A DNA stretch of 25,155 bases from Promethearchaeota archaeon (GTDB lineage: Archaea > Asgardarchaeota > Hermodarchaeia > Hermodarchaeales > Hermodarchaeaceae), in the NCBI GenBank assembly GCA_048939245.1, contig JBHLPR010000032.1, positions 1 through 25,155 on the forward strand, written 5' to 3'. Below the pieces are notes generated by a model. The model made no database searches and was not told the origin of the DNA. It was given only the letters and a program-made list of their open reading frames with translations. Both the position numbers and the translations under genes were made by a program. Positions 2 to 19,500 of this stretch are shown one piece after another (the stretch's first letter is position 1; each line of letters starts with the position of its first letter).

Positions 2-1555
2 CCCACAGGGCTTTCTGGTTGGTATAATATTTCCCTTCCAAGTGATATCTTTGCCGTTGGTGTATACCAATTAACACTGAGTTGTGATCACGAAGGTTAT
101 CAATATACAATGACTTCAATCGGGTTAAATATCCAACCTTGTCAAACATCTTTGATAATTGATGAAATCACCACGGAATTAGAAGAAACTGGAATCATCA
201 TTCCACTAAATGGAACCGCTTGGGATGTCCCACGCGGAGACATCCTACGAATCTATTTTAATTTCACAGACACAGACGGTCGGGTGATTCTGAATGCAAC
301 CGGGTCCTATTCATGGCAATTGGGTAGTGGGGTACTTCAATTTAGGAATGGTCTCTATGTCGCCCAAATAAATCTCACCGATGTAACTCCTGGGCTCTAT
401 AGCCTTACCATTTCGCTAACACGTCAAAATTTCGAAACTGCTACTGCTCCATACTTACAGCTAAATGTGATTCACGTACCCACAGAAATCACTGGATTAT
501 CAGACACGATTACCATCTTTACTGGTGAAGCATTCAGTCTTCATGTAACATTTACAGATACCTACCATAACGTCATCATCACCGATGCCACCCTATATGT
601 CTCCATACCTAGTCTTGGATTAGATTTGCGACCAATGGTGAACAACGGAGATGGGACCTATTCTTTAGCTGGACTATCCGCTCTTGTTGAAGGAACATCT
701 TCTATTATTATCGAATCCTCTGCCGCACCGAAATACGCACACACACAAAGTACTGCCACGCTTATTGTGAGCCTCAGTCCAGTCACAAGAACAGCCATCC
801 AAGCTGGTGCACTTCTTGGAGTTATACTAGTTATCTCCCTACTTATCTGGTTGGCTTACGTAAGGGTTTACTCAATTCCATGGATTGTACGAAAAATGCG
901 GAAAATGAGTAAATCAATTGACCATGGTCAAATGCCCTCTCTTTCAAAGAACGAAATTAATCGGATTCCGAATCGCGACACTCAACTAGTTACAATGATG
1001 TCACCCTCTTATGAAGCTTCAAGTTTAACAATTCAACCCTATGTACTTCCCACAGCTGAACTCCCTACTGAAAGAAGATCTGAAGATGATGCCATATTAC
1101 TTGAATTGGAACAATTGGAGGGTTTAGGTGAGAATCAAAAAGAACAGCTGTTTGAACAAATGAAAAAGATTCCAGCCAAAGACCGGGTGTGGTTCATGGA
1201 GGACATGAAACGGCAAATGGCGGAAGGTCGGTTTGATTATCTAAAAACAGGGGATGCTGAAGTTGAAGAAGAAGCACCTGCTGAAGAGAGACCTGAGAAA
1301 CCTGGGTTGAGCCCTGTAGAACAAGCAACACTAGTTGCGGTACTGAGGGAAGGGCTCGAACAATTCACGGTAATAAGTGATGGAGATAAAGATGCCCTTG
1401 TCCAACAACTGATTATCATGACGCCCAAAGAACGGGAAGCGACAATTAAGAAATTAATGGCTCGGATGAAAGGTTTACAGCTTGAAGAACCTGAGCCTAA
1501 ACCAAAACTAAAGAAGCGAAAGAAGAAAGCCGATTTTGACACTAGTGATTCATAA
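2..1555 (+). CDS. C-terminal part of a large membrane-anchored surface protein (Ig-like beta-sandwich repeats, single TM helix, acidic helical cytoplasmic tail); 5'-truncated by the window edge
   Basis: The frame of the 110..1555 ORF is open back to base 2 (PTGLSGWYNISLPSDIFAVGVYQLTLSCDHEGYQYT-M). It has Thr-rich beta repeats with GxYxLT and NGDGTYSL motifs, a hydrophobic segment AGALLGVILVISLLIWLAYV followed by RKMRK (positive-inside), a charged tail and a TAA stop at 1553-1555. Confidence 0.8.
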   Translation, partial: PTGLSGWYNISLPSDIFAVGVYQLTLSCDHEGYQYTMTSIGLNIQPCQTSLIIDEITTELEETGIIIPLNGTAWDVPRGDILRIYFNFTDTDGRVILNATGSYSWQLGSGVLQFRNGLYVAQINLTDVTPGLYSLTISLTRQNFETATAPYLQLNVIHVPTEITGLSDTITIFTGEAFSLHVTFTDTYHNVIITDATLYVSIPSLGLDLRPMVNNGDGTYSLAGLSALVEGTSSIIIESSAAPKYAHTQSTATLIVSLSPVTRTAIQAGALLGVILVISLLIWLAYVRVYSIPWIVRKMRKMSKSIDHGQMPSLSKNEINRIPNRDTQLVTMMSPSYEASSLTIQPYVLPTAELPTERRSEDDAILLELEQLEGLGENQKEQLFEQMKKIPAKDRVWFMEDMKRQMAEGRFDYLKTGDAEVEEEAPAEERPEKPGLSPVEQATLVAVLREGLEQFTVISDGDKDALVQQLIIMTPKEREATIKKLMARMKGLQLEEPEPKPKLKKRKKKADFDTSDS

Positions 1556-1652: not shown

Positions 1653-2033
1653 ATGGTTATGAAACAAATAGGAGAAGGTCTTATCACTCTCCAGAAATCA
1701 GCGCAGGGAACTCTTCGAATTATTTCTTCGATAGAAGATGTACTCAAATTGCTTAAAGACCTTAAAGCGGAGGAGGCATCGAATTCAGTTACTGAAACGT
1801 TGGTTCTCGTTGAGGATGCTGGCACAACAACCTTAGCTCCAATTCTTTCTCGTCTAAAGGGGGTGGTCTGTACTTCAGGAGCTTTAGGATCTCACCTTGC
1901 CATTGTAACCCGTGAATTTGGAATCCCCGCTCTCATGGGCACAAAAATAGATTATGCTGGCAAACTTGAATTGCAACAAGTCAAAATTGAGCCACGTGAT
2001 ACACCAAATGGTGTTCTACTTATTGATGAATAA
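1653..2033 (+). CDS. Stand-alone PEP-utilising enzyme mobile (phospho-histidine swivel) domain protein
   Basis: GVVCTSGALGSHLAIVTREFGIPALMG matches the swivel-domain signature (GGxTSHxAIxARExGIPxxxG). The His codon is at 1893-1895. An SD-like GAGGCG lies upstream, so the start may be ATG 1659. Confidence 0.85.
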   Translation: MVMKQIGEGLITLQKSAQGTLRIISSIEDVLKLLKDLKAEEASNSVTETLVLVEDAGTTTLAPILSRLKGVVCTSGALGSHLAIVTREFGIPALMGTKIDYAGKLELQQVKIEPRDTPNGVLLIDE

Positions 2034-2052
2034 TACCGATGCTTGCGGGAGA

Positions 2053-3060
2053 ATGAAGATGCCACCGTTTCCACCGAGAAAATTCGTTCCCTCGAATCTC
2101 CAGATTGAATTTCTTGATCGTGTGCCAACTAATCAACCAGAACTCTTCGGTGGAAAAGCTGTGAACCTGGCACGGCTTCACCAAATGGGAATTTCAATAC
2201 CCAAAGGATTTGCCCTCTCTACTCAGTGTTTTATTCAATTTCAGTCATCCTATCAAGATTTGGAATCCTATAAAACTCTCCATACTAAACTGACAGATTT
2301 TGAAACGCTTCTTCATTCTTCAGAGGAATTTCAAAACCAAGCAAAAGAATTTGAATTACCTGAGAGCGTCGCTAAAGAAATTATTACTAAATTCGAACAA
2401 CTCGAAAAAACCCATGAAGATGTCCATGCAGGCTATGCTGTTCGTTCCTCTGCTACAACCGAAGATGTCAATGAATTTTCCTTTGCAGGTCAAGCTGACA
2501 GCTTTCTTTGCGTAAAGGATCTCTCCGGTATCCTAGAAGCTGTAAAACGCACTTGGCTTTCTCTTAACTCAGCTAGAGCACTCATCTATTTGAAGAGCAA
2601 AAGCATCAACCCCCATCACGTGTATATGGGCGTGATTGTCCAAGAGATGGTGCTGGGTGAAGTATCAGGGACTATGTTCACCACGAACGTTGTCAATAAC
2701 AATCCTGATCAACTTATCATCGACTCTACCTGGGGGTTGGGCGAAAGCGTTGTTGCTGGTAAGGTAATCCCCGATTCATTTTTTCTCCAAAAAGCTCCGT
2801 TGAAAATCCTCAAGCGACACCTTGGTGAGAAAGCCCTCTATAGTGCTCCACATCCCGCTGATCGACCTGAATGTACCTTATTTTTAGAAACACCTCAAGA
2901 AAAACGGGAAATATTCTCGATTGCTGACGAAAAACTCTACGAGCTCGCACGGTTAGGTCTTCAAATCGAAACGGCAATGAATCTACCTCAAGACATCGAA
3001 TGGACATTAAAAGAGGATTCATTTATCATCCTTCAGACCCGACCAATAACCACATTCTAG
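2053..3060 (+). CDS. Stand-alone PEP/pyruvate-binding (PPDK_N, ATP-grasp) domain protein of the PEP synthase/dikinase family
   Basis: Motifs GGKAVNLARL, IPKGFAL, YAVRSSATTED..SFAGQ, VIVQEMV, SGTMFT, WGLGESVV, PQDIEW and ILQTRPITT. The protein ends exactly at the end of the ATP-grasp domain. Start moved from 1954 (which overlaps the upstream gene) to ATG 2053/2059 after GGGAG. Confidence 0.9.
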   Translation: MKMPPFPPRKFVPSNLQIEFLDRVPTNQPELFGGKAVNLARLHQMGISIPKGFALSTQCFIQFQSSYQDLESYKTLHTKLTDFETLLHSSEEFQNQAKEFELPESVAKEIITKFEQLEKTHEDVHAGYAVRSSATTEDVNEFSFAGQADSFLCVKDLSGILEAVKRTWLSLNSARALIYLKSKSINPHHVYMGVIVQEMVLGEVSGTMFTTNVVNNNPDQLIIDSTWGLGESVVAGKVIPDSFFLQKAPLKILKRHLGEKALYSAPHPADRPECTLFLETPQEKREIFSIADEKLYELARLGLQIETAMNLPQDIEWTLKEDSFIILQTRPITTF

Positions 3061-3242
3061 GCCTCTTTGTCATATTCTTCTCATTCAGCAGCTCTCAACA
3101 CTCTTCGAAACTTTCCGGTTTTCAACGAAGGAGATATATGGCATCTTTGAAAGAGTTATTTCAGGCTTGATTGAAGCTTGGGGAACGAAAGGTCAGCCAA
3201 GTCATATTCCCTTCCCCGACAAATTCGTAAAAGGTGATCTTA

Positions 3243-6200
3243 ATGCCTCCCGACGAGCAACCCGTACAAAAGACTCAGGATTCAGCGATTTTAGAACTGA
3301 TAGCAGAAGAATCCCCCCTAGGCATCATCGTTATCCAAGATGATCGGGTTCTCTTTGCAAATAAGGAACTTGCCCAACTCATTGGTTTTAGTCTGTCAAA
3401 TCTTCACAGGATGACGACGAATGATTTTATGCAATTTATTGCCGATGCTGATAAACTCGGAGCAAGCCAAAGGTTGAATTCAGCTGTTGGAGGTGAAATT
3501 AAGACAAAATTCTATGATGTTCGTGTAAAAGACAAGAAGGGAATGGAAAGGTGGCTTCAAATACTACCACGTGGAATCAAAATTCAGGATAAACCCGCAA
3601 TCCTTGCTATGGTCGCTGATATTACCAAACAAAAACATATTGCTCAGGCTCATCAGGACTTGGTTAACCATTCACTCCAAGGTCTTATCATCATCCAAGA
3701 TATGCACGTAGTCTTTTCTAATCAGGCATTTGCTGATATCAGTGGATATACAATTGAAGAACTCCTAAACCTTACTCCGGAAGAAGTCAAAGCTCGAGTG
3801 CACACCGATTATCAAAAACGGGTATGGGGTCGGATGCAAGATCGCCTTAAAGGCAAATCTGTTCCCTCTCATTATCAATTCAAAGCAATTCGCAAAGATG
3901 GATCTGAGCGTTGGTTAGAGATGTTTGTCACTGTAATTGAATATGAAGGGAAACCAGCAGTTCAAGCAACATTCCTAGATATCACCGAAAAACAAGAGGC
4001 TGATATTAAGCTTCAAGAATCCGAAGCCCGCTATCGCGGACTCTTTGATGAAATACCCGTTGGCCTTTATCGAACCAGCGCAGCAGGCGATATTGTCGAC
4101 GCAAATCCTGCAATTGTAAGATTACTTGGTGCAGAAGATAAAGAAACACTTCTAGAAATGAATGCGTCAGACTTTTATGTAGATCGTCATGAACGTGAAC
4201 GTTTTAAAGAAAAATTAGGCAAAGAAGGAATTGTTACAGGTCATGAGGTACAATTCAAACGTTTAGATGACAGAATTATTTGGGTCCGTGATACTTTCCG
4301 TGCAATTCGTGATGAAAAAGGGGTAATTCAATATTATGAAGGATCCTTAGAGGATACCACTGAACGGGTGAAGGCGGAAGAAGCCCTCAAAGAACGAGAG
4401 CGCCGATATCGTGCTCTATTTGAACGCACCAACGATGCTGTGTTTATTATTTCACTTGATTTGAAGCATCTGGATGTTAATCAGCGTGCTGCTGAATTAT
4501 TAGGCTATACCTTGGACGAGATGGTTGGGATGCCGGTTGAGCAGGTTGTTGGACAAGGTGAATATGAGGACAGTAGACGCGTCTTGAAATCGTTATTAGC
4601 AGGTGATCATGTTCCAGTCTATGAACGTATTTTCAGGAAAAAAACCGGAGAAGAATTTCCAGTAGAAATCAATGCTGCACTCGTTACCGATAATGAAGGC
4701 ATTCCAGTTCATATTCAAAGTGTAGCTCGAGATATTTCTGAAAGAAAACAAGCGGAACTTGCTTTGAAAGAAAGTGAAGAAAAATACCGAACGTTAGTGG
4801 AAACGTCCCCTGATGCTATAACAGTTACAGACTTAGAAGGCAAAGTCATCATGGTGAATCGTCAAGCTCTTCAACTGTACGGTGTTGGCAGTGAAAAGGA
4901 ATTGATTGGCGTTAATGCGTTTGAACTAATTTCTCCCGATGATGTTCCAATTGCTATGAAGAACATGCAAAAAACACTAGAGAAAGGGACCTCTGGAACT
5001 TTAGAGTATAACTTACTTCGACGAGATGGCACACCTTACCCAGCTGAACTTAATGCGACTCTCATGAAAGATACCGATGGGAACCCCACAGCATTCATCG
5101 GAGTCATTCGCGATATTAGTGAGCGAAAGGAAGCTGAAGCCCGATATCGTCAACTTTTTGATAGCGTTCCAGTTGGGCTTTTTAGAACAACACCGGATGG
5201 AACCATTCTTGATTCCAATCCCGCTCTAATTGAAATGTTGGGATTTGATGATAAAGAATCCCTTCTTAAACGGAAAGCATCCAGTTTCTATGTGGACCCT
5301 GCTGGCCGAAAACAATGGGAAACTGCCGTTGCCCGAGAAGATGTCGTTACTGGAGTTCTAGCTGAATTTCAAAGGGTGGATGAGGAAAGAATTTGGGTTG
5401 AATTAACCGCACGGGCAATTCGTGATAAAGAAGGGAAAGTGGTCTATTATGAAGGGACATTAGAGGATATCACTAATCGTAAAAGAAGTGAAGATGCAGT
5501 TCGAGAATCTGAAGCAAAATATCGGGCACTAATCGAACAATCTTTTCAAGGTATTATAATCATCCAAGATAATCAGATTGTGTTTGCGAATCCGCAAATG
5601 GAAGAAATTGTGGACATAACTCCAGAAGAACTTCTTAAGATGCCTCCCAACGCGTTTTGGGAACGAATTCACCCTGAAGATATTCAATGGATTCAAGACC
5701 GCTTTCGAGACCGCTTCGCTGGAAAGGAAGTACCAGATCGTTACGAAATTCGAGTACTTTCACCAGATGGTCGAATCCAGTGGATTGAAATTTGGGTCAA
5801 AATGATTGACTACCAAGGCGAAGCCGCAATACAGGTGACTTTATCCGATGTAACAGAGCGGAAACGAGCAGAGATGCTTATTCGCGAATCTGAGGAGAAG
5901 TATCGAACGCTTGTTGAGCAATCGCTCTTTGGAATAGTAATTTCTCGTGGTCCTCCACTTCGGATGTTCTTCGTTAATGAAGCATTCGCTGAAATGATCG
6001 GTTATACTGTCGAAGAAATTCTAGCCATGTCTCCGAGCAAAGTAAAAGAACTAATCCATCCGTCTGATCAGGATTTGGTTATTGGACGCGCTGAGGAACG
6101 ATTAGCTGGCAAAGCCGTTCCTGAAAAATATGAATACCGCATGGTGAAAAAAGATGGATCCATACTTTGGGTGGAAATCTTCGCGCATCGCATTGAATAT

Positions 6201-6674
6201 CAGGGAGAACCTGCGGTGCAAGCCGCCTACATCGATATCACTGAACGCAAGGAAGCTGAAGCCGCATTACAAGAATCTGAAGAACGGTTCCGGGCATTAG
6301 TAGAAGATCTTTCCGATTGGGTTTGGGAAATGGATCTCACCGGGAAATTCGTCTACACGAATAATGCCGTTGAGGATATAATCGGATTTTCTGCAGGACA
6401 AGTCTTGGGATGCACACCATGTGACTTTTTACGCCCTGATGATATCAGTCGGGCACAGGACACATGGAAAGAGCTCAAGGAAAGACGACGCCCTATCCGT
6501 ACAATTGTTATCCAGATGGTTCATCGGGATGAATCTGATGTAATCCTTGAAGCACGCGGTCGACCCATTTTCAACGAATCTGGTGAACTCCTAGGATTTC
6601 GGGGTGTCTGCCGAGATATCACTGACCGCATTAAAATGCTAGAACAACTACGCGAACTCGATGATCGACTTTAG
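3243..6674 (+). CDS. Soluble multi-PAS protein (9 tandem PAS/PAC domains) with no recognisable output domain
   Basis: Nine units end in DITKQK/DITEKQ/DTTERV/DISERK/DISERK/DITNRK/DVTERK/DITERK/DITDRI, most joined by ESExxYRxL linkers. No TM helix and no HisKA/HATPase/REC/GGDEF after the last PAS. SD GGTGA at 3233-3237 favours ATG 3243. Confidence 0.9.
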   Translation: MPPDEQPVQKTQDSAILELIAEESPLGIIVIQDDRVLFANKELAQLIGFSLSNLHRMTTNDFMQFIADADKLGASQRLNSAVGGEIKTKFYDVRVKDKKGMERWLQILPRGIKIQDKPAILAMVADITKQKHIAQAHQDLVNHSLQGLIIIQDMHVVFSNQAFADISGYTIEELLNLTPEEVKARVHTDYQKRVWGRMQDRLKGKSVPSHYQFKAIRKDGSERWLEMFVTVIEYEGKPAVQATFLDITEKQEADIKLQESEARYRGLFDEIPVGLYRTSAAGDIVDANPAIVRLLGAEDKETLLEMNASDFYVDRHERERFKEKLGKEGIVTGHEVQFKRLDDRIIWVRDTFRAIRDEKGVIQYYEGSLEDTTERVKAEEALKERERRYRALFERTNDAVFIISLDLKHLDVNQRAAELLGYTLDEMVGMPVEQVVGQGEYEDSRRVLKSLLAGDHVPVYERIFRKKTGEEFPVEINAALVTDNEGIPVHIQSVARDISERKQAELALKESEEKYRTLVETSPDAITVTDLEGKVIMVNRQALQLYGVGSEKELIGVNAFELISPDDVPIAMKNMQKTLEKGTSGTLEYNLLRRDGTPYPAELNATLMKDTDGNPTAFIGVIRDISERKEAEARYRQLFDSVPVGLFRTTPDGTILDSNPALIEMLGFDDKESLLKRKASSFYVDPAGRKQWETAVAREDVVTGVLAEFQRVDEERIWVELTARAIRDKEGKVVYYEGTLEDITNRKRSEDAVRESEAKYRALIEQSFQGIIIIQDNQIVFANPQMEEIVDITPEELLKMPPNAFWERIHPEDIQWIQDRFRDRFAGKEVPDRYEIRVLSPDGRIQWIEIWVKMIDYQGEAAIQVTLSDVTERKRAEMLIRESEEKYRTLVEQSLFGIVISRGPPLRMFFVNEAFAEMIGYTVEEILAMSPSKVKELIHPSDQDLVIGRAEERLAGKAVPEKYEYRMVKKDGSILWVEIFAHRIEYQGEPAVQAAYIDITERKEAEAALQESEERFRALVEDLSDWVWEMDLTGKFVYTNNAVEDIIGFSAGQVLGCTPCDFLRPDDISRAQDTWKELKERRRPIRTIVIQMVHRDESDVILEARGRPIFNESGELLGFRGVCRDITDRIKMLEQLRELDDRL

Positions 6675-6746
6675 CTTCAAAGCTGGTCGCACTAGAATCC
6701 TTAAATGCAACATCCAGGCATCCTATCTCCCAAGAGATGTGATGCT

Positions 6747-7916
6747 ATGATTGGAGATCTTAGCACCAACAAAGCAAACACCTTCCTTCACCGAGCTAGC
6801 GCCGCTAGCACATACCTTCTCTCCCAACGAACCGCCCTTGAATCCAAACTTTTCCCCGTTACAGCATATAATAGTGTAGCCTGTGCTCAAATCTATCGCG
6901 ATTACCAGTATAATATCTTCACAGAACTCGCCAAACATGTCTCTCCAGAGGAGATTGGTCAACGCTGTCGAACCTTGGCCGCTTATCCAAACGTCTTAGG
7001 CGTTTGGGCATTTATTGGTCTCTGGGGACTCGGACGCATGCAAGACCTCTATGATGCTGGTGGAGCAGAACATGAACAACCCGAACGCCGGAAACAAGCC
7101 AGATTTATGATTGATTTCTGGTATCGCATGGCCACCAGCTATTATGATAGCGACAAACCCCTTGCTGCTGAAAATAATGATACGGCCTGTGTGCTTCCTG
7201 AGAATATTCTCGAAATGGTCAAACAAGAGCTCCAACCATTAGATAACGACCAGCGGATGCAACTCAAACGTACCATGGCGCAGCTTTACCTTGCTGAGTT
7301 TCTCTCATATTGTGAGTGTCGAGCTAGTATCCATGAAATGGGACCATACCCTTTTAGTAAAAACGAGTATCTCATCTTCCGAGAATTCTCACCTCTCTAT
7401 GATGGTTCCCGGCTTATCTGGGACTGGCACGATACGAAAGCAACATCTCCGGTCCCCAATCTATCCGTTGCCTTAGTCGTGAAGGATATGGACGAACTCG
7501 TCTTTACTGATTTTGCTACGCTCTTTCCAAAACCAGAAGATTACTCTGACCATATCACCCAATTTGCGCTCTTCACCCGTTTCGACGACAAAATCGAAAC
7601 TACTCCCTTTTCAGTTCTCAACGATCTAGAGCAGTTTGCTACCGATGTCCAAACCGAACTTTACCTCGAATTCGCTGAATGGGATGATGTTAAACGACTC
7701 AAAGCTGGCTCATCAGTCTTCCTAAAATGGTTCTACATCTTCACTGACATGGGCAACATCACTGATAAAATCACCATGGGTTTAGACGAAGACAAGGTTG
7801 GTGATTATATCCAACTCATGCTCAAATCTATGGGGCATCCTGCGTGGGCTCGACTCTTTCGCAGCACAGCCGAATGTGAAAAAGATCCCACCTTCTACGA
7901 ACTTCTCGACGAATAG
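6747..7916 (+). CDS. Uncharacterised protein, candidate substrate-binding subunit of the split PEP-dikinase
   Basis: Long ORF (389 aa from ATG 6747; 403 aa from 6705). Motifs RTALESKLFPVTAY, DFWYR, GPYP and TDFATLFPKPEDY resemble a hypothetical family I recall next to stand-alone PEP-mobile domains in Actinobacteria (recollection, unverified). Confidence 0.6.
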   Translation: MIGDLSTNKANTFLHRASAASTYLLSQRTALESKLFPVTAYNSVACAQIYRDYQYNIFTELAKHVSPEEIGQRCRTLAAYPNVLGVWAFIGLWGLGRMQDLYDAGGAEHEQPERRKQARFMIDFWYRMATSYYDSDKPLAAENNDTACVLPENILEMVKQELQPLDNDQRMQLKRTMAQLYLAEFLSYCECRASIHEMGPYPFSKNEYLIFREFSPLYDGSRLIWDWHDTKATSPVPNLSVALVVKDMDELVFTDFATLFPKPEDYSDHITQFALFTRFDDKIETTPFSVLNDLEQFATDVQTELYLEFAEWDDVKRLKAGSSVFLKWFYIFTDMGNITDKITMGLDEDKVGDYIQLMLKSMGHPAWARLFRSTAECEKDPTFYELLDE

Positions 7917-7928
7917 GTGCACTCCATC

Positions 7929-8831
7929 ATGTCAAGTGAAGTCTCCAAATCCGACGAACAGTTCCATGAACCTACCAACGATCCAGACTGGAAGGAATCC
8001 TACTACTTCCAATTATACAACCCTGAAACTAAATTGGCCGCTTTCTTCTACATCTCCGCTTATCCTAACATTCCCAAACGCGATTATCTCGTTGCTTTCC
8101 TTCATGATGGTCAAACCGATATCTATCTTAATACACTTCCAACCTCCGGAAAACTTGACAAATTGGAAGATGGGAAACTCCGATTCGAGCTCATCAAACC
8201 CCATGACCAATGGAAAATCCATTTCGACGATGGAAAAAGGTTTACAAATCTCAAATTTACCGGACGCTTCGAGTCCTTCGCCTATGATCCCAAACAAGCA
8301 TACAAGAAGGGTATTCTAGAACAAGAGCACTACGAACAAGGCTGTTTCGTCAATGGAACGATTAGATTAGCTGATGGCACCGAACACCAACTCAGCTGTT
8401 TTGGACATCGAGACCACTCCTGGGGACTTCGTGATTATGCCGCCATCGATGAATGGAACTGGATTGCTGTTCAATTTTCTTGGTGCACTATCAACCTCCT
8501 CAAACTGCATATTGGCAAAAAACATGAAACAGCGGGTTTCCTGTCAAGCCTTATCGGTAACCAACACCTCACTGATATCACATTCACAACCCATTTCGAA
8601 TCGGATGGTCTAACCCCTCAAGGTTTCACCGTCCAGTTCACAGACGAAGGAAAGAAACAATGGCACCTCGAATCAACGAAACTCCAAACCATGGTCTACC
8701 CACCACGACAAGCTAAGGCTGGATATGAAACCCATATCTATGAAATAGTCTCACAATTCACCCTTAAAGGCGATCCCAGTTTTGGATATGGAATATCAGA
8801 GTACCTAATTAGCCGAAAAACATCGAAATAA
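7929..8831 (+). CDS. AttH/CrtC/tocopherol-cyclase-like double beta-barrel protein (DUF7064/DUF7065-like)
   Basis: Motifs HEP..DPDWKESYYF, EHYEQ, G(T)I and GHRDHSWGLRDY...WNW; beta-rich sequence. SD AGGTG at 7915-7919 precedes ATG 7929. Confidence 0.65.
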   Translation: MSSEVSKSDEQFHEPTNDPDWKESYYFQLYNPETKLAAFFYISAYPNIPKRDYLVAFLHDGQTDIYLNTLPTSGKLDKLEDGKLRFELIKPHDQWKIHFDDGKRFTNLKFTGRFESFAYDPKQAYKKGILEQEHYEQGCFVNGTIRLADGTEHQLSCFGHRDHSWGLRDYAAIDEWNWIAVQFSWCTINLLKLHIGKKHETAGFLSSLIGNQHLTDITFTTHFESDGLTPQGFTVQFTDEGKKQWHLESTKLQTMVYPPRQAKAGYETHIYEIVSQFTLKGDPSFGYGISEYLISRKTSK

Positions 8832-8846
8832 CCGGATGCCCTCTCT

Positions 8847-9296
8847 ATGCTTAATTTTAGCTACCTAATCCCTGGGGTTCTCGCTGGTTCCAGCCTACCT
8901 CGTGGACGCAAAGACCTTGAGCACCTCGTTACTGAAGGCATCAAAGTACTTGTCACCGCTATGGAAGATACTCTTAATACGGCGCTCGTTGAAGAAGTGG
9001 GGCTTGAATACCATTACTTTCCGATCCTTCCTTATGGCACACCATCACTAAAACAAATCAACGAATTCGTCGACTTAGTCAATACGAATCGTGCGAAGAA
9101 TCGACCGATCGCAATTCATTGTTACATGGGTTGGGGTAGAACTGGAACTTTACTTGCCGCATATCTGATTAGTGAAGGCATGGGGACGGATGAGGCTATT
9201 GCAGAAGTACGCGATAAGCGTCCTGGGTCTATTGAAACTTTTGGACAAGAGCAAATTCTTCACATGTTTGAGCAAAGCTTGGTCCATCGAAAATAA
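8847..9296 (+). CDS. Dual-specificity protein phosphatase family (Cys-based PTP fold)
   Basis: Active-site loop IHCYMGWGRTGT (HCxxGxGRT), N-terminal LAGSSLP and C-terminal AIAEVRDKRPGSIETFGQ. Confidence 0.92.
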   Translation: MLNFSYLIPGVLAGSSLPRGRKDLEHLVTEGIKVLVTAMEDTLNTALVEEVGLEYHYFPILPYGTPSLKQINEFVDLVNTNRAKNRPIAIHCYMGWGRTGTLLAAYLISEGMGTDEAIAEVRDKRPGSIETFGQEQILHMFEQSLVHRK

Positions 9297-9311: not shown

Positions 9312-10310
9312 TCAATGCTGATGACTATGCCCATTTGGGTCTGTCGATGGAACGAAACATGCCTGTTCATAATAAGGCTCAACAGCAAGACATTCGACCT
9401 GAATCGTAGTATGTTCAATCCCGTGTTCTTCACAAAGAAACTTATTCACTGAATCGATAAGGTTTCGAGTAGCACTTACTGAGCAATCCTCCGATATATT
9501 CAGATGCATGGACAAACAATAAATTCCTGAGGTAAGTTCCCAAAGATGTACATCATGAACATGATGAATTTCTGGGAAACGAACTTTGATTTCTTTCTCG
9601 AGTTCATCAATATCATAGCCCTGAGGTGCTGACTGAAGGAGAATTGCTGTCGTTGTGCGTATGAGTTGAATTCCCCACATAAGGATGATTATCGCGATGA
9701 AGAAGCTTACAATCGGATCAATGAATACCCAGCCTGTGAACAAAATAAGGAGCGCAGCAATGATTACTCCGATTGAGGAGAAAGTATCACTGATTACATG
9801 AAGGAAGGCACCCTTGACATTATGATCCCCTTGACTGCTTCCTTGAAGTAGAACCATCGTTGCGAGATTCACAAGAAATCCCAGGATAGCAACAAGAAGG
9901 AGTTCCAGAGCTGCCACTGGTACCGGGTTAATCAAACGTTGGATGGCTTCAAGGAGAATAAAAATACTGACTATGATAACAAAAATGGCGTTAAACAAAC
10001 CTCCAAGGATTTCAACCCGGTAATAACCAAAGGTATACCGTCGAGGTGCTGAACGAGTAGCGATAATGATCGCTGCTAATGCAATTAGGAGAGCAAGAAA
10101 GTGGGAAAGCATGTGCCCAGCATCACTAATTATGGCAAGGCTTCCGGTGAGTATACCGCCGATTAACTCAACCCCCATCATAGAACCCGTTAAAAAGAGT
10201 CCCAGTAGAAGCCGCTGTCTAGCGATTCTCCGATATACGCGGGAATCACCTTCTCGGTGTTCAAAATGATGTCCATGTCCAGGCGGGGGTCGCATCTCTT
10301 CAGTTTCCAT
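9312..10310 (-). CDS. Cation diffusion facilitator (CDF) metal efflux transporter
   Basis: SLAIISDAGHMLSH, YTFGYYRVEILG, NVKGAFLHVISD, VHDVHLWEL and GIEHTTIQVE; about six TM segments; His-rich N- and C-termini. Start taken at METEEM (10310). Confidence 0.92.
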   Translation of the reverse strand: METEEMRPPPGHGHHFEHREGDSRVYRRIARQRLLLGLFLTGSMMGVELIGGILTGSLAIISDAGHMLSHFLALLIALAAIIIATRSAPRRYTFGYYRVEILGGLFNAIFVIIVSIFILLEAIQRLINPVPVAALELLLVAILGFLVNLATMVLLQGSSQGDHNVKGAFLHVISDTFSSIGVIIAALLILFTGWVFIDPIVSFFIAIIILMWGIQLIRTTTAILLQSAPQGYDIDELEKEIKVRFPEIHHVHDVHLWELTSGIYCLSMHLNISEDCSVSATRNLIDSVNKFLCEEHGIEHTTIQVECLAVEPYYEQACFVPSTDPNGHSHQH

Positions 10311-10422
10311 AATACTACACAGTATCTTTCGTGAAGAATGCAAAAGGTGTCTTTTTACCATTCCTCATTAACTGTTCATCTACTCGGTACTTTGAATCAG
10401 AGATGAGAAAATGAAAGAATTG

Positions 10423-15156: not shown

Positions 15157-15551
15157 AACCTTTTGATGAGTTCAGTTATCGGATTCGAGTTCGCCGTGGT
15201 GAATTATGGGAAAGAAAAGCCTACCTTGACTTCTTCATGAAGACATAGTGTCTTTTACCGATGATTGAATGGCATGCTCGCGTCACTCACGATCAAGACT
15301 ACGACACTTGGTTCGGTGGACGCTTCCTTGAACGATGCTTGGATCTCCGCATTATTACCGAACTCCGGAGTGCTTTTACACATTATGAAGAAGAGGATGT
15401 TTGGTACGCTCTTAGTATTACTATGCAACTTTTTCGTTGGATCGCCAAAGAAGTCTCAGAGAAATTAGATTACAGTTATCCTAAAGACGCTGATCAGTTC
15501 GCTAGCCGATGGGTTGATGCAGCCTATTGGGATCGGGAGCTGAATGATTAG
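15153..15551 (+). pseudogene. Truncated aminoglycoside 6-adenylyltransferase (AadK/ANT(6)-like) C-terminal domain with an in-frame TAG
   Basis: In-frame translation MKPFDEFSYRIRVRRGELWERKAYLDFFMKT*CLLPMIEWHAR...YDTWFGGRFLE...LFRWIAKEVSEKLDYSYP. The family motifs RRGELW and MIEWH flank the TAG at 15246-15248. The N-terminal nucleotidyltransferase domain is absent. Confidence 0.75.
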
Positions 15552-16591
15552 AAGCGTCGTGGCTTCTTCGGATAGGCTTGGAAAGGGGTTCTGGGTTCTA
15601 AACTTAACCAGTCGGTTTTCTGATCCAATCGTGATAGGGACCGGAGTAAATCAAATGTCACCCAGCGTGATACTTCAGGGTGCTGTTGATATTCCCAAAG
15701 GCCATAAGGTCCTTGTAAATCCTTGACAAACTTCACGATATCTGCAATACGGGCATCTTCGAGATTTGCTTCAATCCGCCAAGACAAATCCAATATCTGC
15801 CCTACATCATATCTCTTGAAATATGTGAAGCCACCACGTGGCGGTTCCGCTCCCACAATTCGTGCTACTTCAAAGCCAAGTGTATGAGCTTGTCGTTGTT
15901 CTTGAGCAAGGAGTTTATCTAACCCCCGCTGTGCTGATTCACTAGTCCGACGGGTTGGATGTAAGGCCAATGCACTCACGGCTGCAGTGGTGTTAGTTCG
16001 ACACCCGAATTTTGAATGGGGGAGTCGTCGATAACCCGCTGAAAAAATGAATTCTTCTTTATGACGCCCCGATGGCCACCCTCCATCTGGAAGCTCCTCG
16101 CGAAGCAGCCATTCATACGCTGCTTCAGCCCGCCTATCTGTTGCATAGCCAGCCCAAGCTAAACCTAATAATGGCAAAGCTGTTTGGAGCGGCATGGCAT
16201 GGTATTTAACATCAGCTGCCTTTCCTCCATCTAGAACAGCGCCTTGGGTAATCAATGGAAAGGCACCATCAGCTTCTTGCTGAGCAAAGAGATATTCAGC
16301 CCCCTTCATTACCGAGGGTGATTCGGGACCTAATCCAAAATAGCCCAATCCCATGAGTGCTTGAGCCGTCATTCGGATTCGACCCAGGATAGCCCCTCCC
16401 CCTTCTCCACTTCTGAATGACCCATCCTTTTCCTGCAATGCAAGAAACTTCTCAACCATAGGATCTGCGGATTGGAGCTTTTTCAGTTCTTGGATTTCCT
16501 CATCGGAATCAGGGCGGTTTAAGAGGTCGCGTAGTACTAGCAGGCGAAGACTTGGCGATGGATCAGCAAGTAGTAACGGAATCCATGTCAT
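15548..16591 (-). CDS. Prenyltransferase/squalene-oxidase repeat (alpha/alpha toroid) protein
   Basis: QW-like repeats LQEKDGSF, QQEADGAF, ELPDGGW and LQGPYGLW; C-terminal SRWVT. No DxDD cyclase motif. ATGA overlap with the UvrA-like gene. Confidence 0.7.
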   Translation of the reverse strand: MTWIPLLLADPSPSLRLLVLRDLLNRPDSDEEIQELKKLQSADPMVEKFLALQEKDGSFRSGEGGGAILGRIRMTAQALMGLGYFGLGPESPSVMKGAEYLFAQQEADGAFPLITQGAVLDGGKAADVKYHAMPLQTALPLLGLAWAGYATDRRAEAAYEWLLREELPDGGWPSGRHKEEFIFSAGYRRLPHSKFGCRTNTTAAVSALALHPTRRTSESAQRGLDKLLAQEQRQAHTLGFEVARIVGAEPPRGGFTYFKRYDVGQILDLSWRIEANLEDARIADIVKFVKDLQGPYGLWEYQQHPEVSRWVTFDLLRSLSRLDQKTDWLSLEPRTPFQAYPKKPRRF

Positions 16592-19500
16592 GGGTTTCCC
16601 TCCAGAACTTCCCTAAGATAGGGGGCTGTTGGTGTATTGGTTGTAGCGATGGCTTCAGGGGTTCCTGTGGCGATGATTTGACCTCCATTAGGACCTCCTA
16701 CTGGGCCAAGCTCAATTAGCCAATCGCATGATGCGAGGATGTAGGGGTGATGTTCTACCACAATCACCGTGTGTCCGCTATCAACTAATTTTTGGAGCAC
16801 TGTGATAAGTTGTGCAATATCTTCCATGTGGAGTCCCACAGAGGGTTCGTCTAAAATATAGAGCGTAGGTTTCTTTGTCTTTTTGAGAAGCTCTTTGGCG
16901 ATTTTCAATCGTTGGACTTCTCCACCGGACAAGGTGTAACTGCGTTGATTCCATACAAGATATCCTAATCCTACTTCCCGAGTTATTTCAAGGGGCTCTG
17001 CTAGGCGTGGTTCATCCTTAAAGAGTTCAGAAACTTCGTTTAAGGTCATCTGGTTGAGTTCAGGCAATGTTACACCATTAACCCGGACTTCCCATGTTTC
17101 AGGGCGATACCCGCTTCCTTTACAGGTTTCACATTCAATCAACTCGTTGGGGAGAAAACCCATATCGATTCGAAGAACCCCACGTCCCTTACAAGCTGAA
17201 CACGGTTTCGTTAATTCTTTTTTCTCTAATCCCAAGGCTTCTGCATCATCACTTTCAACAAAAAGCTTGTACATAGGTGAGAGAAGATTCAAATAACTCG
17301 CGGGGCTTTTTATTCCTCTTCGTGACTGGTCTACCATCAAGGTCCGGTGCGGATTGCCAGATATTGTATCATATTCTCCAGGTTCGAGGGGTTCTCGAGC
17401 AAAGGACGAAGAATGCAATTGCTTGATTAGAGCACGACCAATAGTATCGATTAGTAGGGTGCTTTTCCCCGATCCAGATACTCCACAGACGCCTGTAAAG
17501 GTTCTGAGGGGAAATCGTACTTCTTCTCCTTGCAGGTTGTTTTCACGTGCACCGGTAACAACCATCCATGATTTTGGTGGGCGTCGATTCTGGGAGTCCA
17601 TCCAGGCTAGCAGTCCACGCTGCTTACAAGGCTTGTTACCTCTCTTGGTCTGTAACCATTTGCCGGTTAGTGTTTTTGCCGTGATAAGTTCTGCAGGCGT
17701 GCCTTCAGCGACAACCTTTCCTCCGAAGGCACCTGCCTTTGGTCCTAAATCAATAATGTGGTCTGCTGCCCGAATTAGTTGGAGGTCATGTTCAACCATG
17801 ATGACGGTGTTGCCCTGATTACATATTTCATGTAACGCTTCAAGGAGTGCTTCTAATTCTGAAGGGTGCATTCCTCTTGATGGTTCATCAATGAGAATTG
17901 TCAAGGATGTTAATCCACTACCTAATAGACTTGCGAGCTGAATCCGTTGCGCTTCTCCGGCTGATAATGTGCCGATGGGACGATTCAAATGAAGGTAGCC
18001 GATGCCAACTTGACGTAAAAATCGTAACCGACGACGAATGAGCTCTATACTGGTCTCAACCAACGGGATATCAGCAGGAGGTGCTGGTATTTGGCTGATG
18101 AGGGTCTCCAATTCGGCCAGTGGCATCTCACTCATTTCGTAGATATTCTTATTCTGCAACGTCACAGTGAGAAATTCAGGACGAAGACCTGCTCCTTGAC
18201 ATTCGGGGCAAATGACTTCTTTAGTGTAGGTTCCATGGACATCCCAATTATAGATCCAGCTTTCCTTTTGATAGAATCCCTTCCACGTCCACTTGGTCTG
18301 TCGTTGCTTTCCTTTCAGCTTGCCCGTGGATTTACTAGTATAGGTAAATTTGTAGGTTTTCCCATCGCCATAGAAAAAGACTTCTTGGGCTTTTTTCGAC
18401 ATTTTATTCCAGGGGGTTTTGAACGGATCAAAGCCGTAGCCTTTACCCAACTCGGGAATAATCGGCTGGTCTTTACACAAGTAGGTTTTTGGCCAGTATC
18501 CTGGCGACCACATTGCCCCTGCACATAATGGTTTATCGGGGTTCACAATGAGCTTTTCAGGTTGGGGCAGTCGTAGAATACCTAATCCGTTACATTTCTT
18601 ACACGAACTCAGCCAATGCGAAGAGGAAAAATATTGAGGCTTTGCGATGGGGGCGGTATTAGCACAGTTGGGGCAGACCCATTGGTCTTCACGTTGCATT
18701 TGAGCCTCACATTTCAAACAAGTTCGCTGACCTAGCGCCGCCAGAACGTTTGCTAAATGGAAACTGAGCTCGGTCAGTGTTCCCACGATATTCCGGCGAG
18801 TAAATTGAGGGATATGGCTCCAAAGGTGCGCCCGGTGTGTCGCTACTGTCAATGTTACGCCCAAACCCTTAATCGAATCCACTACCGCCTCGGGTCCCTC
18901 TCGGATGCCCTGGCGTTCAAACATCGACAGAGTCTCTAAATAGCGACGCCGTGCCTCGGTCTGCAAAACATCTTGCACTAAGCTAGATTTCCCTGAACCC
19001 GACACACCCGTAACCACAGTTAAGGTGCCCTTTGGAATATCGACATCGATACCTTTCAAGTTATTAGCTCGAGCATTACGCACTGCAATTACTGAGGTTG
19101 TTGGCGACATTATCTTGGTCGCTTTTCGTGGTTGCACCGCTTCTTCATTTTTTAATGCTCGGCCAGTGAGGGAATGCTTGTTCTCTAATAGGTTGGTTGG
19201 AGGTCCCTCATACAGGACCATTCCACCTCGTGGTCCCGCACCTGGACCAAGATCGATTACCCAATCTGCTGCACGAATCAAATCGGTATTATGCTCCACA
19301 ACAACGATGGTTGCTCCATGGCGTACCAATCGATCCAGTACGATAAGTAATCCATCAAGATCTTGGGGATGAAGTCCCGTTGATGGTTCATCCAACACGA
19401 TAAGCTGGTTGTTCAATCGGTTTCGACCCAAGAACTTGGTCAGTTTGACTCGTTGCGCCTCTCCACCTGACAGGGTTGGTGACGGTTGTCCCAATTCCAA

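What the first reader, a model, noticed from the sequence alone, without database searches (positions are those of the whole stretch)
6747..7916. Orphan 389-aa protein with enzyme-like motifs, a possible new acceptor-binding fold
Seen: a mostly helical-looking soluble protein with RTALESKLFPVTAY, IDFWYR, FLSYCECRASIHEMGPYP and TDFATLFPKPEDY. It matches no named domain I can recognise. I recall similar hypothetical proteins beside stand-alone swivel domains in Actinobacteria (unverified). If so, the module spans archaea and bacteria. The CECR..IHE segment could supply catalytic or metal ligands (inference).
Basis: inference. Interest (0 to 1): 0.7.

Follow-up and report, generated by a model that had tools for sequence, protein, structure and literature searches.

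The report
New-fold partner of phosphohistidine swivel carrier
This Asgard-archaeal gene encodes a member of an unnamed protein family with no recognisable fold that is almost always encoded next to (or fused to) a free phosphohistidine carrier domain and a phosphate-eliminating lyase, so it is probably the missing substrate-handling part of a new kind of ATP-driven dehydrating enzyme system.

Summary
The ORF and all quoted motifs are real (6747-7916, 389 aa). It has no Pfam, NCBIfam or PDB sequence match. A confident AlphaFold model (pLDDT 92.5) finds no structural relative (best Z 4.8). The family has about 650 clusters at 50% identity, in Asgard archaea and Acidimicrobiia.

Gene context is decisive. 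In bacteria 63 of 63 loci have a stand-alone PEP-utilizers swivel gene abutting upstream, and 57 of 62 have a DUF7065/7064 gene downstream. Five representatives are swivel-target fusions. Three differently arranged Asgard loci add a stand-alone PPDK_N ATP-grasp.

A complex model docks the swivel's catalytic His on the target's conserved patch (0.61 vs control 0.00). The translationally coupled downstream gene is a homologue of 25-phosphosteroid lyase.

Best reading: the target is the swivel-docking acceptor subunit of a split dikinase-type kinase that feeds a phosphoester lyase, that is, a new ATP-dependent dehydratase.

Open points: the substrate is unknown, and so is the phosphoryl donor where no PPDK_N is linked. 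The Cys/His ligand idea fails, but E190 and R192 are invariant.

First-stage readers flagged the same module in other genomes, without follow-up.

The parts
6747..7916 (+). Target: 389-aa member of an unnamed family, the proposed swivel-docking (acceptor) subunit. Conserved core: R28, S33, R97, R127, E/D190, R192, G199-P200-Y201, P263, Y306, G321.
   Evidence: Translation. Homologues. Conservation. AF2 model pLDDT 92.5. No fold match. Docking model with the swivel.
1653..2033 (+). Stand-alone phosphohistidine swivel carrier (PEP-utilizers mobile domain, 126 aa) with invariant Ser80-His81. It is the only stand-alone swivel found in this genome.
   Evidence: Pfam PF00391 E 7e-10. Invariant S-H in alignment A2. 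Genome census.
1954..3060 (+). Stand-alone ATP-grasp nucleotide-binding domain (PPDK_N), overlapping the swivel gene. It is the presumed ATP-dependent charger of the swivel.
   Evidence: Pfam PF01326 E 7e-77. NCBIfam PEP-synthase/RPH N-terminal matches only. The only stand-alone PPDK_N in the genome.
3234..6674 (+). Multi-PAS protein (1146 aa, no output domain) lying between the charger genes and the target. It is lineage-specific and absent in L017, where swivel-PPDK_N-target-lyase are contiguous. It may be a regulator and is not a core part.
   Evidence: Pfam PAS, 8 stretches. Presence and absence across loci.
7917..8831 (+). DUF7065/DUF7064 (Rv3169-family) protein, a homologue of 25-phosphosteroid lyase. 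Its start codon directly follows the target's stop. It keeps the G-x-R165-D166-H-S-W-G motif.
   Evidence: Pfam and NCBIfam. AF2 pLDDT 90.5. Foldseek 9g4c/9fzn E 4e-16, TM 0.78. Profile against PDB sequences, E 7.9e-10. Conservation.
8847..9296 (+). Small Cys-based dual-specificity/PTP-type phosphatase (149 aa). It follows the lyase in the Hermod/Thor lineage only, in 6 of 14 Asgard loci.
   Evidence: Pfam PTP-SAK E 6e-21 and DSPc. Census.

Best explanation
The 389-aa protein belongs to an unnamed family with an apparently new fold. Its conserved face is the docking and catalytic site for a free phosphohistidine 'swivel' carrier. In this Hermodarchaeota-like genome the stand-alone ATP-grasp (PPDK_N, 1954-3060) is proposed to load phosphate from ATP onto His81 of the stand-alone swivel (1653-2033). 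The swivel then docks on the target. There the invariant acid/arginine residues (E190, R192, with R28, S33, R97 and R127) would help pass the phosphoryl group to a hydroxyl of a bound small molecule. The phosphoester would then be taken by the translationally coupled 25-phosphosteroid-lyase homologue (7917-8831), which eliminates phosphate to give an alkene. Together this makes a split, dikinase-type 'ATP-dependent dehydratase'. In it, swivel plus target replaces the APH-type kinase of the known 25-HSK/25-PSL pair. Shown here: the family, its conservation, the gene linkage, the fusions, and the homology of the lyase partner. Supported in silico only: swivel-target binding through the His face. 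Inferred: the direction of phosphoryl flow, the acceptor role, and the substrate. The substrate may be a tertiary, isoprenoid-type alcohol, judged from the chemistry of this lyase/hydratase fold.
For: (1) Linkage. Among 80 species-level loci, 63 of 63 bacterial loci with upstream sequence have a swivel gene abutting the target (gap -18 to +137 bp). 57 of 62 bacterial and 13 of 13 Asgard loci have the DUF7065/64 gene directly downstream.

(2) Fusions. Five independent representatives (P0058, P0106, P0122, P0152, P0197) are N-terminal swivel plus target fusions. The gene after P0058 is again a DUF7065 homologue.

(3) PPDK_N, swivel, target and lyase co-occur in three different arrangements:
- Hermod L017, contiguous;
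- Atabey L023, divergent;
- Loki second locus L124/L125, with a target paralogue at hhalign E 2e-61.

(4) The window's genome has exactly one stand-alone swivel and one stand-alone PPDK_N, both in this window. It has two target-lyase pairs.

(5) The swivels keep an invariant Ser-His.

(6) Complex model: score 0.61, best of 3 controls 0.00.
- The mark was reached by 58 of 80 solved complexes and 2 of 110 mismatched pairs. These counts hold only roughly, because my own alignments were used.
- The runs agree in at least 90% of contacts, and partner pLDDT is at least 87.
- The interface contains swivel His81 and target residues 32-36, 174-190, 260-267 and 299-310.
- 11 of 26 interface residues are conserved, against 3.1 expected (p = 5e-5).

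(7) The partner is homologous to 25-phosphosteroid lyase by fold (E 4e-16, TM 0.78) and by sequence (E 7.9e-10, shared G-x-R-D-x-S-W-G-V-R).

(8) The known lyase works after a separate kinase (PMC8449060, PMC7411048). In Actinomycetota, 3 of 7 other DUF7065 genes have an APH kinase gene adjacent. A kinase slot beside this lyase is therefore usual.
Against: No biochemical data exist. 0 of 66 bacterial loci have PPDK_N within 10 kb. The Freya locus L002 and the first Loki loci (L020-L022, L024) also lack it. In the complete Acidimicrobiia chromosome G001, every PPDK_N lies in a long frame with its own swivel. In the Freya chromosome G005, the only PPDK_N lies next to a swivel in a PpsA-like frame. 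In both, the donor for the stand-alone swivel is unexplained. The conserved site is rich in Arg and acidic residues. That would suit a phosphoryl donor such as PPi, PEP or a nucleotide as well as an acceptor. In this window a 3.4-kb PAS gene separates the charger genes from the target. In relative L006 the gap is 8.6 kb. The lyase assignment rests on about 18% identity. The docking is a prediction only.
Confidence: 0.5

Rival explanations
1. Donor-site model. The target is a new phosphoryl-donor station. It binds PPi, PEP or a nucleotide and charges the swivel histidine. The swivel then delivers the phosphoryl group to a substrate held in the DUF7065/64 protein, which both accepts and eliminates it. 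Swivel, target and lyase would then be self-sufficient without an ATP-grasp.
For: The three-gene operon without PPDK_N is the commonest form: 0 of 66 bacterial loci have PPDK_N within 10 kb. Complete genomes G001 and G005 have no orphan ATP-grasp. A swivel needs two stations, and target and lyase are the only two conserved partners there. The invariant residues are Arg/acid-rich. An H+-pyrophosphatase gene lies within about 5 kb in 18 of 66 bacterial loci. Independently, one lies next to the target in Asgard L004/L005.
Against: In Hermod, Atabey and the Loki second locus, a canonical ATP-grasp donor is linked to the same family. A second donor there would be redundant. No swivel-lyase fusion was seen among the forms scanned. 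25-PSL itself takes a ready-made phosphoester (PMC8449060). No nucleotide- or PEP-binding fold was recognised.
Confidence: 0.2
2. The target is a kinase-type subunit of a phosphorelay whose product is not handed to the neighbouring lyase. One example would be enol-phosphate formation before carboxylation, as in PEP synthase or acetone-carboxylase logic. The lyase adjacency would then reflect a shared pathway rather than consecutive steps.
For: A distant clade (P0049, P0053) sits in clusters with biotin carboxylase, BCCP, HMGL-like/PYC_OADA carboxyltransferase, enoyl-CoA hydratase, APH and acyl-CoA synthetase. No DUF7065 gene was called there. All polar invariant residues are kept in that clade.
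Against: In the window's own clade and in the bacterial main clade the lyase gene is coupled at 0-57 bp in most loci. The second paralogue in the same genome is also followed by a DUF7065 gene.
Confidence: 0.1
3. The target is not catalytic. It would be a scaffold, chaperone or regulator that binds the swivel (for example sequestering or gating it) or stabilises the lyase.
For: No recognisable catalytic fold was found. The cluster carries regulatory-looking companions, a PAS protein and a small phosphatase.
Against: A set of invariant charged residues (R97, E/D190, R192, with R28 and S33) holds across about 113 diverse members. These residues are enriched at the predicted His-bearing interface. 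Recurrent fusion to the swivel is typical of catalytic partners.
Confidence: 0.1

Closest known systems
Rifampin phosphotransferase (RPH), with relatives PigC/RedH and PRK05849-type enzymes
   Same: The logic is the same. A PPDK_N ATP-grasp charges a swivel histidine, which phosphorylates a hydroxyl of a non-pyruvate substrate held by a third, non-TIM-barrel domain. The window's PPDK_N scores against the RPH and PigC N-terminal regions.
   Different: Here the three parts are separate genes. The third part shows no sequence or fold similarity to the RPH-type central domain. In most lineages no ATP-grasp is linked. The product is apparently passed to a lyase.
25-hydroxysteroid kinase / 25-phosphosteroid lyase (ATP-dependent dehydratase of anaerobic cholesterol degradation, Sterolibacterium denitrificans)
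   Same: Both use kinase-then-phosphate-elimination logic. The downstream gene is a fold and sequence homologue of 25-PSL and shares the R-D-x-S-W-G motif (PMC8449060, PMC7411048).
   Different: 25-HSK is a one-piece APH-type kinase that uses ATP to ADP through a ternary complex (PMC8449060). Here the kinase slot is filled by a phosphohistidine carrier plus the new-family protein. The hosts are Asgard archaea and Acidimicrobiia, and nothing points to a steroid substrate.
Phenylphosphate synthase (split PEP-synthase-like enzyme of anaerobic phenol metabolism)
   Same: It is a multi-subunit dikinase-type enzyme in which the ATP-grasp is a separate polypeptide and a non-pyruvate hydroxyl is phosphorylated (from established knowledge, not tested here).
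   Different: Its histidine-bearing subunit is a large PEP-synthase-like protein, not a 115-130-aa free swivel. No relation to the target family was detected in the PDB or Pfam searches.
PTS Enzyme I / HPr phosphorelay
   Same: A small free phosphohistidine carrier may serve more than one acceptor. This genome has one swivel for two target-lyase pairs. L125 has one swivel followed by two target paralogues.
   Different: The carrier here is the PEP-utilizers swivel fold, not HPr. No PEP-binding TIM barrel or sugar permease is involved.
AttH / CrtC carotenoid 1,2-hydratase / kievitone hydratase fold family
   Same: The partner protein shares this two-barrel fold (ranks 7-8). The characterised members interconvert tertiary alcohols (or their phosphates) and alkenes on isoprenoid ends.
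   Different: This concerns the neighbour, not the target. It serves only as a hint to the substrate class.

Membership tests
Any named Pfam / NCBIfam family (for the target) | Match to a curated profile above its cut-off | tested here: not met
   No family at E <= 0.01 in Pfam or NCBIfam. Scanning all 39 alignment members at E <= 1 gave only chance-level hits, the best being bpX6 at 0.034 in 7 members.
PEP-utilising dikinase-type phosphotransfer systems (PPDK / PEP synthase / RPH) | ATP-grasp PPDK_N nucleotide-binding domain in the system | tested here: met
   window:1954-3060 matches PF01326 at E 7e-77. It is linked to the family in Hermod, Atabey and the Loki second locus. It is NOT linked in bacteria, the Freya locus or the first Loki loci.
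PEP-utilising dikinase-type phosphotransfer systems (PPDK / PEP synthase / RPH) | Swivel domain with the catalytic histidine | tested here: met
   window:1653-2033 matches PF00391. Ser80-His81 is invariant in 12 stand-alone and fused swivels.
PEP-utilising dikinase-type phosphotransfer systems (PPDK / PEP synthase / RPH) | Third station is the PEP/pyruvate-binding TIM barrel (PEP-utilizers_C) | tested here: not met
   No PEP-utilizers_C match was found in the target or in any window ORF scanned. The model is a helical part plus a 7-stranded sheet, not a TIM barrel.
PEP-utilising dikinase-type phosphotransfer systems (PPDK / PEP synthase / RPH) | Swivel histidine face docks on the third component | tested here: met
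   In silico only. Complex score 0.61, best of 3 controls 0.00. The mark was reached by 58 of 80 solved complexes and 2 of 110 mismatched pairs (rough here, own alignments). His81 lies in the interface. Natural swivel-target fusions exist.
Rifampin-phosphotransferase-type substrate-binding domain | Sequence or fold homology of the target to the central domain between ATP-grasp and swivel | tested here: inconclusive
   No RPH chain appears among the Foldseek or VIA-align matches, best Z 4.8. hhalign against the central region of a PRK05849-type enzyme gave probability 0.1%. Domain-wise fold searches were not possible.
25-HSK / 25-PSL ATP-dependent dehydratase | Lyase component homologous to 25-phosphosteroid lyase | tested here: met
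   The neighbour 7917-8831 matches 9g4c/9fzn/9g2i by Foldseek at E 4e-16, TM 0.78. The profile against PDB sequences gives E 7.9e-10, with a shared R-D-x-S-W-G-V-R.
25-HSK / 25-PSL ATP-dependent dehydratase | Kinase component is an APH-type phosphotransferase (25-HSK) | tested here: not met
   The target has no APH (PF01636) match, and no APH gene was found in the window. 25-HSK is described as a 40-kDa phosphotransferase-family protein (PMC8449060).
25-HSK / 25-PSL ATP-dependent dehydratase | Phosphoester intermediate formed from an alcohol and eliminated to an alkene | not testable with these tools
   This needs enzyme assays.

The most novel reading that the evidence does not exclude
The family is a structurally new class of phosphoryl-acceptor enzyme served by a free phosphohistidine carrier protein. 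The arrangement would be a small relay, reminiscent of the PTS. One ATP-grasp/swivel 'charger' (or, in bacteria, a still unknown donor, possibly PPi-linked) feeds several paralogous target-lyase pairs. These pairs would dehydrate otherwise inert, probably tertiary isoprenoid-type, alcohols in Asgard archaea and Acidimicrobiia.
Probability: 0.3. Interest if true: 0.85.

Novelty: new variant of a known kind. Interest (0 to 1): 0.7.

Why it matters
If the reading holds, it has four consequences.

- It defines a new protein family and probably a new fold, with about 650 sequence clusters. This would be the third station of PPDK/PEP-synthase-type phosphohistidine enzymes, alongside the TIM barrel and the RPH-type domain.

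- It would extend 'ATP-dependent dehydration through a phosphoester', so far known from anaerobic sterol degradation, to Asgard archaea and to abundant Acidimicrobiia such as Microthrix. The kinase module would be non-homologous.

- It gives a first functional handle on the DUF7065/DUF7064 (Rv3169) family.

- It raises a concrete open question: what charges a free swivel domain in genomes with no spare ATP-grasp?

All parts are small soluble proteins, so the hypothesis can be tested directly in vitro.

Tried and rejected
- Cys/His metal site in CECR..IHE: rejected. C189, C191 and H196 are not conserved.
- ORF 110-1555 (481 aa) as a paralogue or the real acceptor: no similarity to the family (probability 4.7%). 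It is conserved only in the three closest relatives.
- C-terminal extensions of the long forms (P0053, P0071, P0122) as fused DUF7065/64: no similarity.
- Small neighbours of 191-207 aa in Freya, Acidimicrobiia and contig C70 as a shared fourth component: unrelated to each other.
- Fold matches for the target: none found with Foldseek PDB (no hit at E <= 1e-3), VIA-align wide (best Z 4.8, CagD, 92 residues, rmsd 4.6) or VIA second look (best Z 4.7). The PDB sequence profile gave nothing below E = 1.
- RPH-type central domain homology: not detected.
- Fusions of 682 aa or more (single query) or 876 aa or more (alignment query), for example with PPDK_N: none found. The tool itself calls this weak evidence.
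- Literature on DUF7065, DUF7064 or Rv3169 function: nothing functional. The paper on the 25-PSL structures is not in the library.
- Generic neighbour clustering in bacteria gave only housekeeping synteny, such as malate/lactate dehydrogenase, FGGY kinase and FAD oxidase.

Full report
OBSERVATION

A longer frame begins at 6705. The homologues all start at the MIGD methionine, so 6747 is the supported start. The next gene starts at 7917, directly after the stop. The protein has no Pfam or NCBIfam match. Scanning all 39 aligned relatives at E <= 1 also gave nothing meaningful.

THE FAMILY

A first search found 49 relatives:
- 49-96% identical proteins from Hermod-, Thor- and Freyarchaeota;
- about 27-30% identical 375-aa proteins from Acidimicrobiia.

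A profile search of 1.84 billion cluster representatives found 649 clusters at E <= 1e-3, of which 199 are at <= 1e-30. A scan of species-representative genomes gave 153 loci. The 80 kept come from Asgard archaea (Hermod, Thor, Freya, Loki, Atabey), Acidimicrobiia/Microthrixaceae and one Burkholderiales MAG.

A quick maximum-likelihood tree puts the Asgard sequences, in three paralogue clades, and the bacterial sequences on opposite sides of a long, well-supported branch. The tree is unrooted and the careful search did not finish. The split looks old, with no sign of recent transfer.

Conservation across 113 near-full-length members:
- R192 is kept in 100%.
- Position 190 is always Glu or Asp.
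- R97, G199-P200-Y201, P263 and G321 are kept in at least 95%.
- N11, R28, S33, L35, G71, G96, R127, A178, F185, L186, W227, P235 and Y306 are kept in 85-95%.
- The two cysteines and the histidine of 'CECR..IHE' are not conserved.

FOLD

With the 39-sequence alignment, AlphaFold2 gives a confident model: pLDDT 92.5, pTM 0.92. It has an N-terminal helical part, a seven-stranded sheet at 195-285 and C-terminal helices.
- Foldseek against the PDB finds nothing at E <= 1e-3.
- An exhaustive VIA-align search of 48,161 chains gives a best Z of 4.8, aligned over 92 residues.
- A second look gives 4.7.

These values lie below what the tool reports as typical for models without relatives. No known fold was found for the whole model. 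I could not fold and search the sub-domains separately, so novelty of each part is not proven.

GENE CONTEXT

I built HMMs from session sequences and scanned all 80 loci.

- Bacteria:
  - 63 of 63 loci with upstream sequence have a stand-alone PEP-utilizers swivel gene abutting the target (gap -18 to +137 bp).
  - 57 of 62 have a DUF7065/7064 gene downstream.
  - 0 of 66 have a PPDK_N ATP-grasp within 10 kb.
- Asgard archaea:
  - 13 of 13 loci have the DUF7065/64 gene 0-21 bp downstream.
  - A swivel is present in 12 of 14 loci. The two exceptions are 4.3-kb contigs.

The swivel and ATP-grasp appear in several arrangements:
- Hermod: swivel-PPDK_N further upstream. They are contiguous with target-lyase in L017 and separated by a PAS gene elsewhere.
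- Atabey: PPDK_N-swivel divergent from target-lyase (L023).
- Loki, first locus: a swivel alone, divergent, 161 bp upstream.
- Loki, second locus:
  - L124 (G156): a DUF7064/65 gene, a 455-aa target paralogue (hhalign E 2e-61) and a second swivel, divergent from a stand-alone PPDK_N.
  - L125 (G157): PPDK_N divergent from swivel-target-target.

The four components therefore co-occur in three independent arrangements.

The window's own genome (88% complete) has one full-length PpsA/PPDK, exactly one stand-alone swivel and one stand-alone PPDK_N, both in this window. It also has a second target paralogue on contig C70, again followed by a DUF7065 gene.

FUSIONS

Five representatives (516-794 aa) carry an N-terminal swivel fused to the target domain. 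The gene after one of them, P0058, is a DUF7065-type homologue. Long forms carry a C-terminal helical extension that is not DUF7065/64. No fusion of 876 aa or more, for example with PPDK_N, was found, which is weak evidence only.

THE SWIVEL IS A LIVE CARRIER AND IS PREDICTED TO DOCK ON THE TARGET

All stand-alone and fused swivels keep an invariant Ser-His and the R-E-[FY]-x-[IV]-P motif. The controlled complex prediction gave these results:
- The score was 0.61, and the best of 3 controls was 0.00.
- The mark was reached by 58 of 80 solved complexes and 2 of 110 mismatched pairs. These counts hold only roughly, because my own alignments were used.
- The runs agree in at least 90% of contacts, and partner pLDDT is at least 87.
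- The interface includes swivel His81 and target residues 27, 32-36, 174-190, 260-267 and 299-310.

11 of the 26 target interface residues are invariant or at least 90% conserved, against 3.1 expected (hypergeometric p = 5e-5). No homologue of the target is in the PDB, so a pass 'from memory' is unlikely. It remains a prediction.

THE DOWNSTREAM PARTNER

The DUF7065/7064 (Rv3169-family) protein folds confidently (pLDDT 90.5). Its best structural matches are the 25-phosphosteroid lyase entries 9g4c, 9fzn and 9g2i (Foldseek E 4e-16, TM 0.78). After these come AttH, kievitone hydratase and fungal pericyclases of the same fold.

A profile of 30 partner sequences also hits 25-PSL by sequence (E 7.9e-10) and shares the motif G-x-R-D-x-S-W-G-V-R. 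The product-complex entry has Asn in place of that Asp, which suggests the depositors regard it as catalytic (my inference). The Asp is D166, conserved in at least 90% of the window's partner family.

In Sterolibacterium denitrificans, 25-PSL removes phosphate from a tertiary phosphoester made by a separate APH-type kinase, 25-HSK. Together they form an 'ATP-dependent dehydratase' (PMC8449060, PMC7411048, PMC11061730).

In a sample of 151 Actinomycetota genomes, 25 have DUF7065 matches. One of these is the unpublished genome G087, and no claim here rests on it. In five of those genomes, 3 of 7 DUF7065 genes have an APH gene directly adjacent, against about 1% expected by chance. A kinase gene beside this lyase family is common. 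In our module that slot is filled by swivel plus target.

MECHANISM

Best-supported reading: PPDK_N charges the free swivel from ATP. The swivel docks on the target, where E/D190, R192, R28, S33, R97 and R127 surround the transfer. A hydroxyl of a bound small molecule is phosphorylated. The coupled lyase then eliminates phosphate to give an alkene.

The fold family of the lyase (CrtC, kievitone hydratase, 25-PSL) works on tertiary alcohol/alkene ends of isoprenoids. That makes such a substrate a reasonable but unproven guess.

The main difficulty is the donor. Bacteria, the Freya locus and the first Loki loci lack a linked ATP-grasp. In the complete Acidimicrobiia chromosome G001, every PPDK_N lies in a long frame with its own swivel. 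In the Freya chromosome G005, the only PPDK_N lies next to a swivel in a PpsA-like frame. So either charging occurs in trans, or the target is itself a donor station (PPi, PEP or nucleotide) and the lyase protein is the acceptor.

An H+-pyrophosphatase gene lies within about 5 kb in 18 of 66 bacterial loci. Independently, one lies next to the target in Asgard L004/L005. This hints at a link to PPi.

My odds are about 0.5 for the acceptor model, 0.2 for the donor model, 0.1 for a kinase role uncoupled from the lyase and 0.1 for a non-catalytic role.

COMPARISON AND NOVELTY

The system works like RPH, PigC or phenylphosphate synthase (ATP-grasp, swivel, non-pyruvate acceptor) joined to the 25-HSK/25-PSL logic. 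The target is not a detectable member of any of their families. I class it as a new variant of a known kind: an uncharacterised, apparently new-fold third component of phosphohistidine-swivel enzymes.

First-stage readers of this scan flagged the same module in other Hermod-like genomes and on this window. None had been followed up, and their notes are not independent evidence.

Noticed in passing
L004:11507-13576; L122:9842-12151; 18 of 66 bacterial loci L025-L090: An H+-translocating pyrophosphatase gene lies within about 5 kb of the module in many Acidimicrobiia loci. Independently, one lies directly beside the target in an Asgard locus that lacks the lyase gene. This may link the system to PPi, as by-product or as donor.
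   Followed up: partly
P0049 and P0053 contexts (no DNA held): A distant clade of the family has a 330-aa C-terminal extension and a 229-aa swivel gene upstream. It sits in clusters with biotin carboxylase, BCCP, two HMGL-like/PYC_OADA carboxyltransferases, enoyl-CoA hydratases, an APH kinase and an acyl-CoA synthetase. This looks like a phosphorylation-plus-carboxylation pathway, with no lyase called.
   Followed up: partly
window 110-1555 (+): A 481-aa ORF with no family match lies directly upstream of the swivel gene. It is conserved (70-82% identity) at the same place only in the three closest Hermod relatives (L011, L013, L018). It is unrelated to the target family.
   Followed up: partly
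window 3234-6674 (+): A 1146-aa protein made only of PAS domains, with no output domain, sits between PPDK_N and the target. It is present in most Hermod/Thor relatives but absent in L017, where the four core genes are contiguous.
   Followed up: partly
G003 and G004 (Acidimicrobiales genomes of L063 and L045): These genomes carry 11-16 PEP-utilizers swivel matches. Most lie in frames of about 580 aa without PPDK_N. This is an expanded set of swivel-containing proteins of unknown architecture.
   Followed up: no
G001:C1:1381680-1383874 and 1361644-1363373; G013:C5:24570-25963: Other DUF7065 (25-PSL-like) genes in Actinomycetota sit directly beside APH-type kinase genes. This suggests that kinase-plus-lyase 'ATP-dependent dehydratase' pairs are widespread. 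The M. tuberculosis pair Rv3168 (APH-like) and Rv3169 may be one; the Rv3168 assignment is from memory and was not checked.
   Followed up: partly
window 15261-15551 (+): A 96-aa ORF matches only the C-terminal part (profile positions 192-276 of 279) of streptomycin adenylyltransferase. Relative L006 has AlkZ-like, APH and a full 308-aa adenylyltransferase at the corresponding place. The window seems to have lost the APH gene and the N-terminal part.
   Followed up: no
L124:9597-13995 (Loki second locus): Next to the PPDK_N/swivel/target/lyase set lie two acetoacetate-decarboxylase-family genes and a GlcD/GlcF-like FAD/Fe-S oxidase pair. A FAD_binding_4 oxidase also recurs about 6 kb from the bacterial operons (15 loci). 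This may be a metabolic hint, or it may be chance.
   Followed up: no
window 9312-10361 (-); L001:1379-2317; L008:5787-6716: A CDF cation-efflux transporter gene lies next to the module in this window and a few kb upstream in two Acidimicrobiia loci. This is probably coincidence.
   Followed up: no
window 15548-21519 (-): A 1643-aa double UvrA-like ABC protein overlaps by 4 bases (16588-16591) with a downstream prenyltransferase/squalene-hopene-cyclase-repeat protein. It is already the subject of separate first-reader notes.
   Followed up: no
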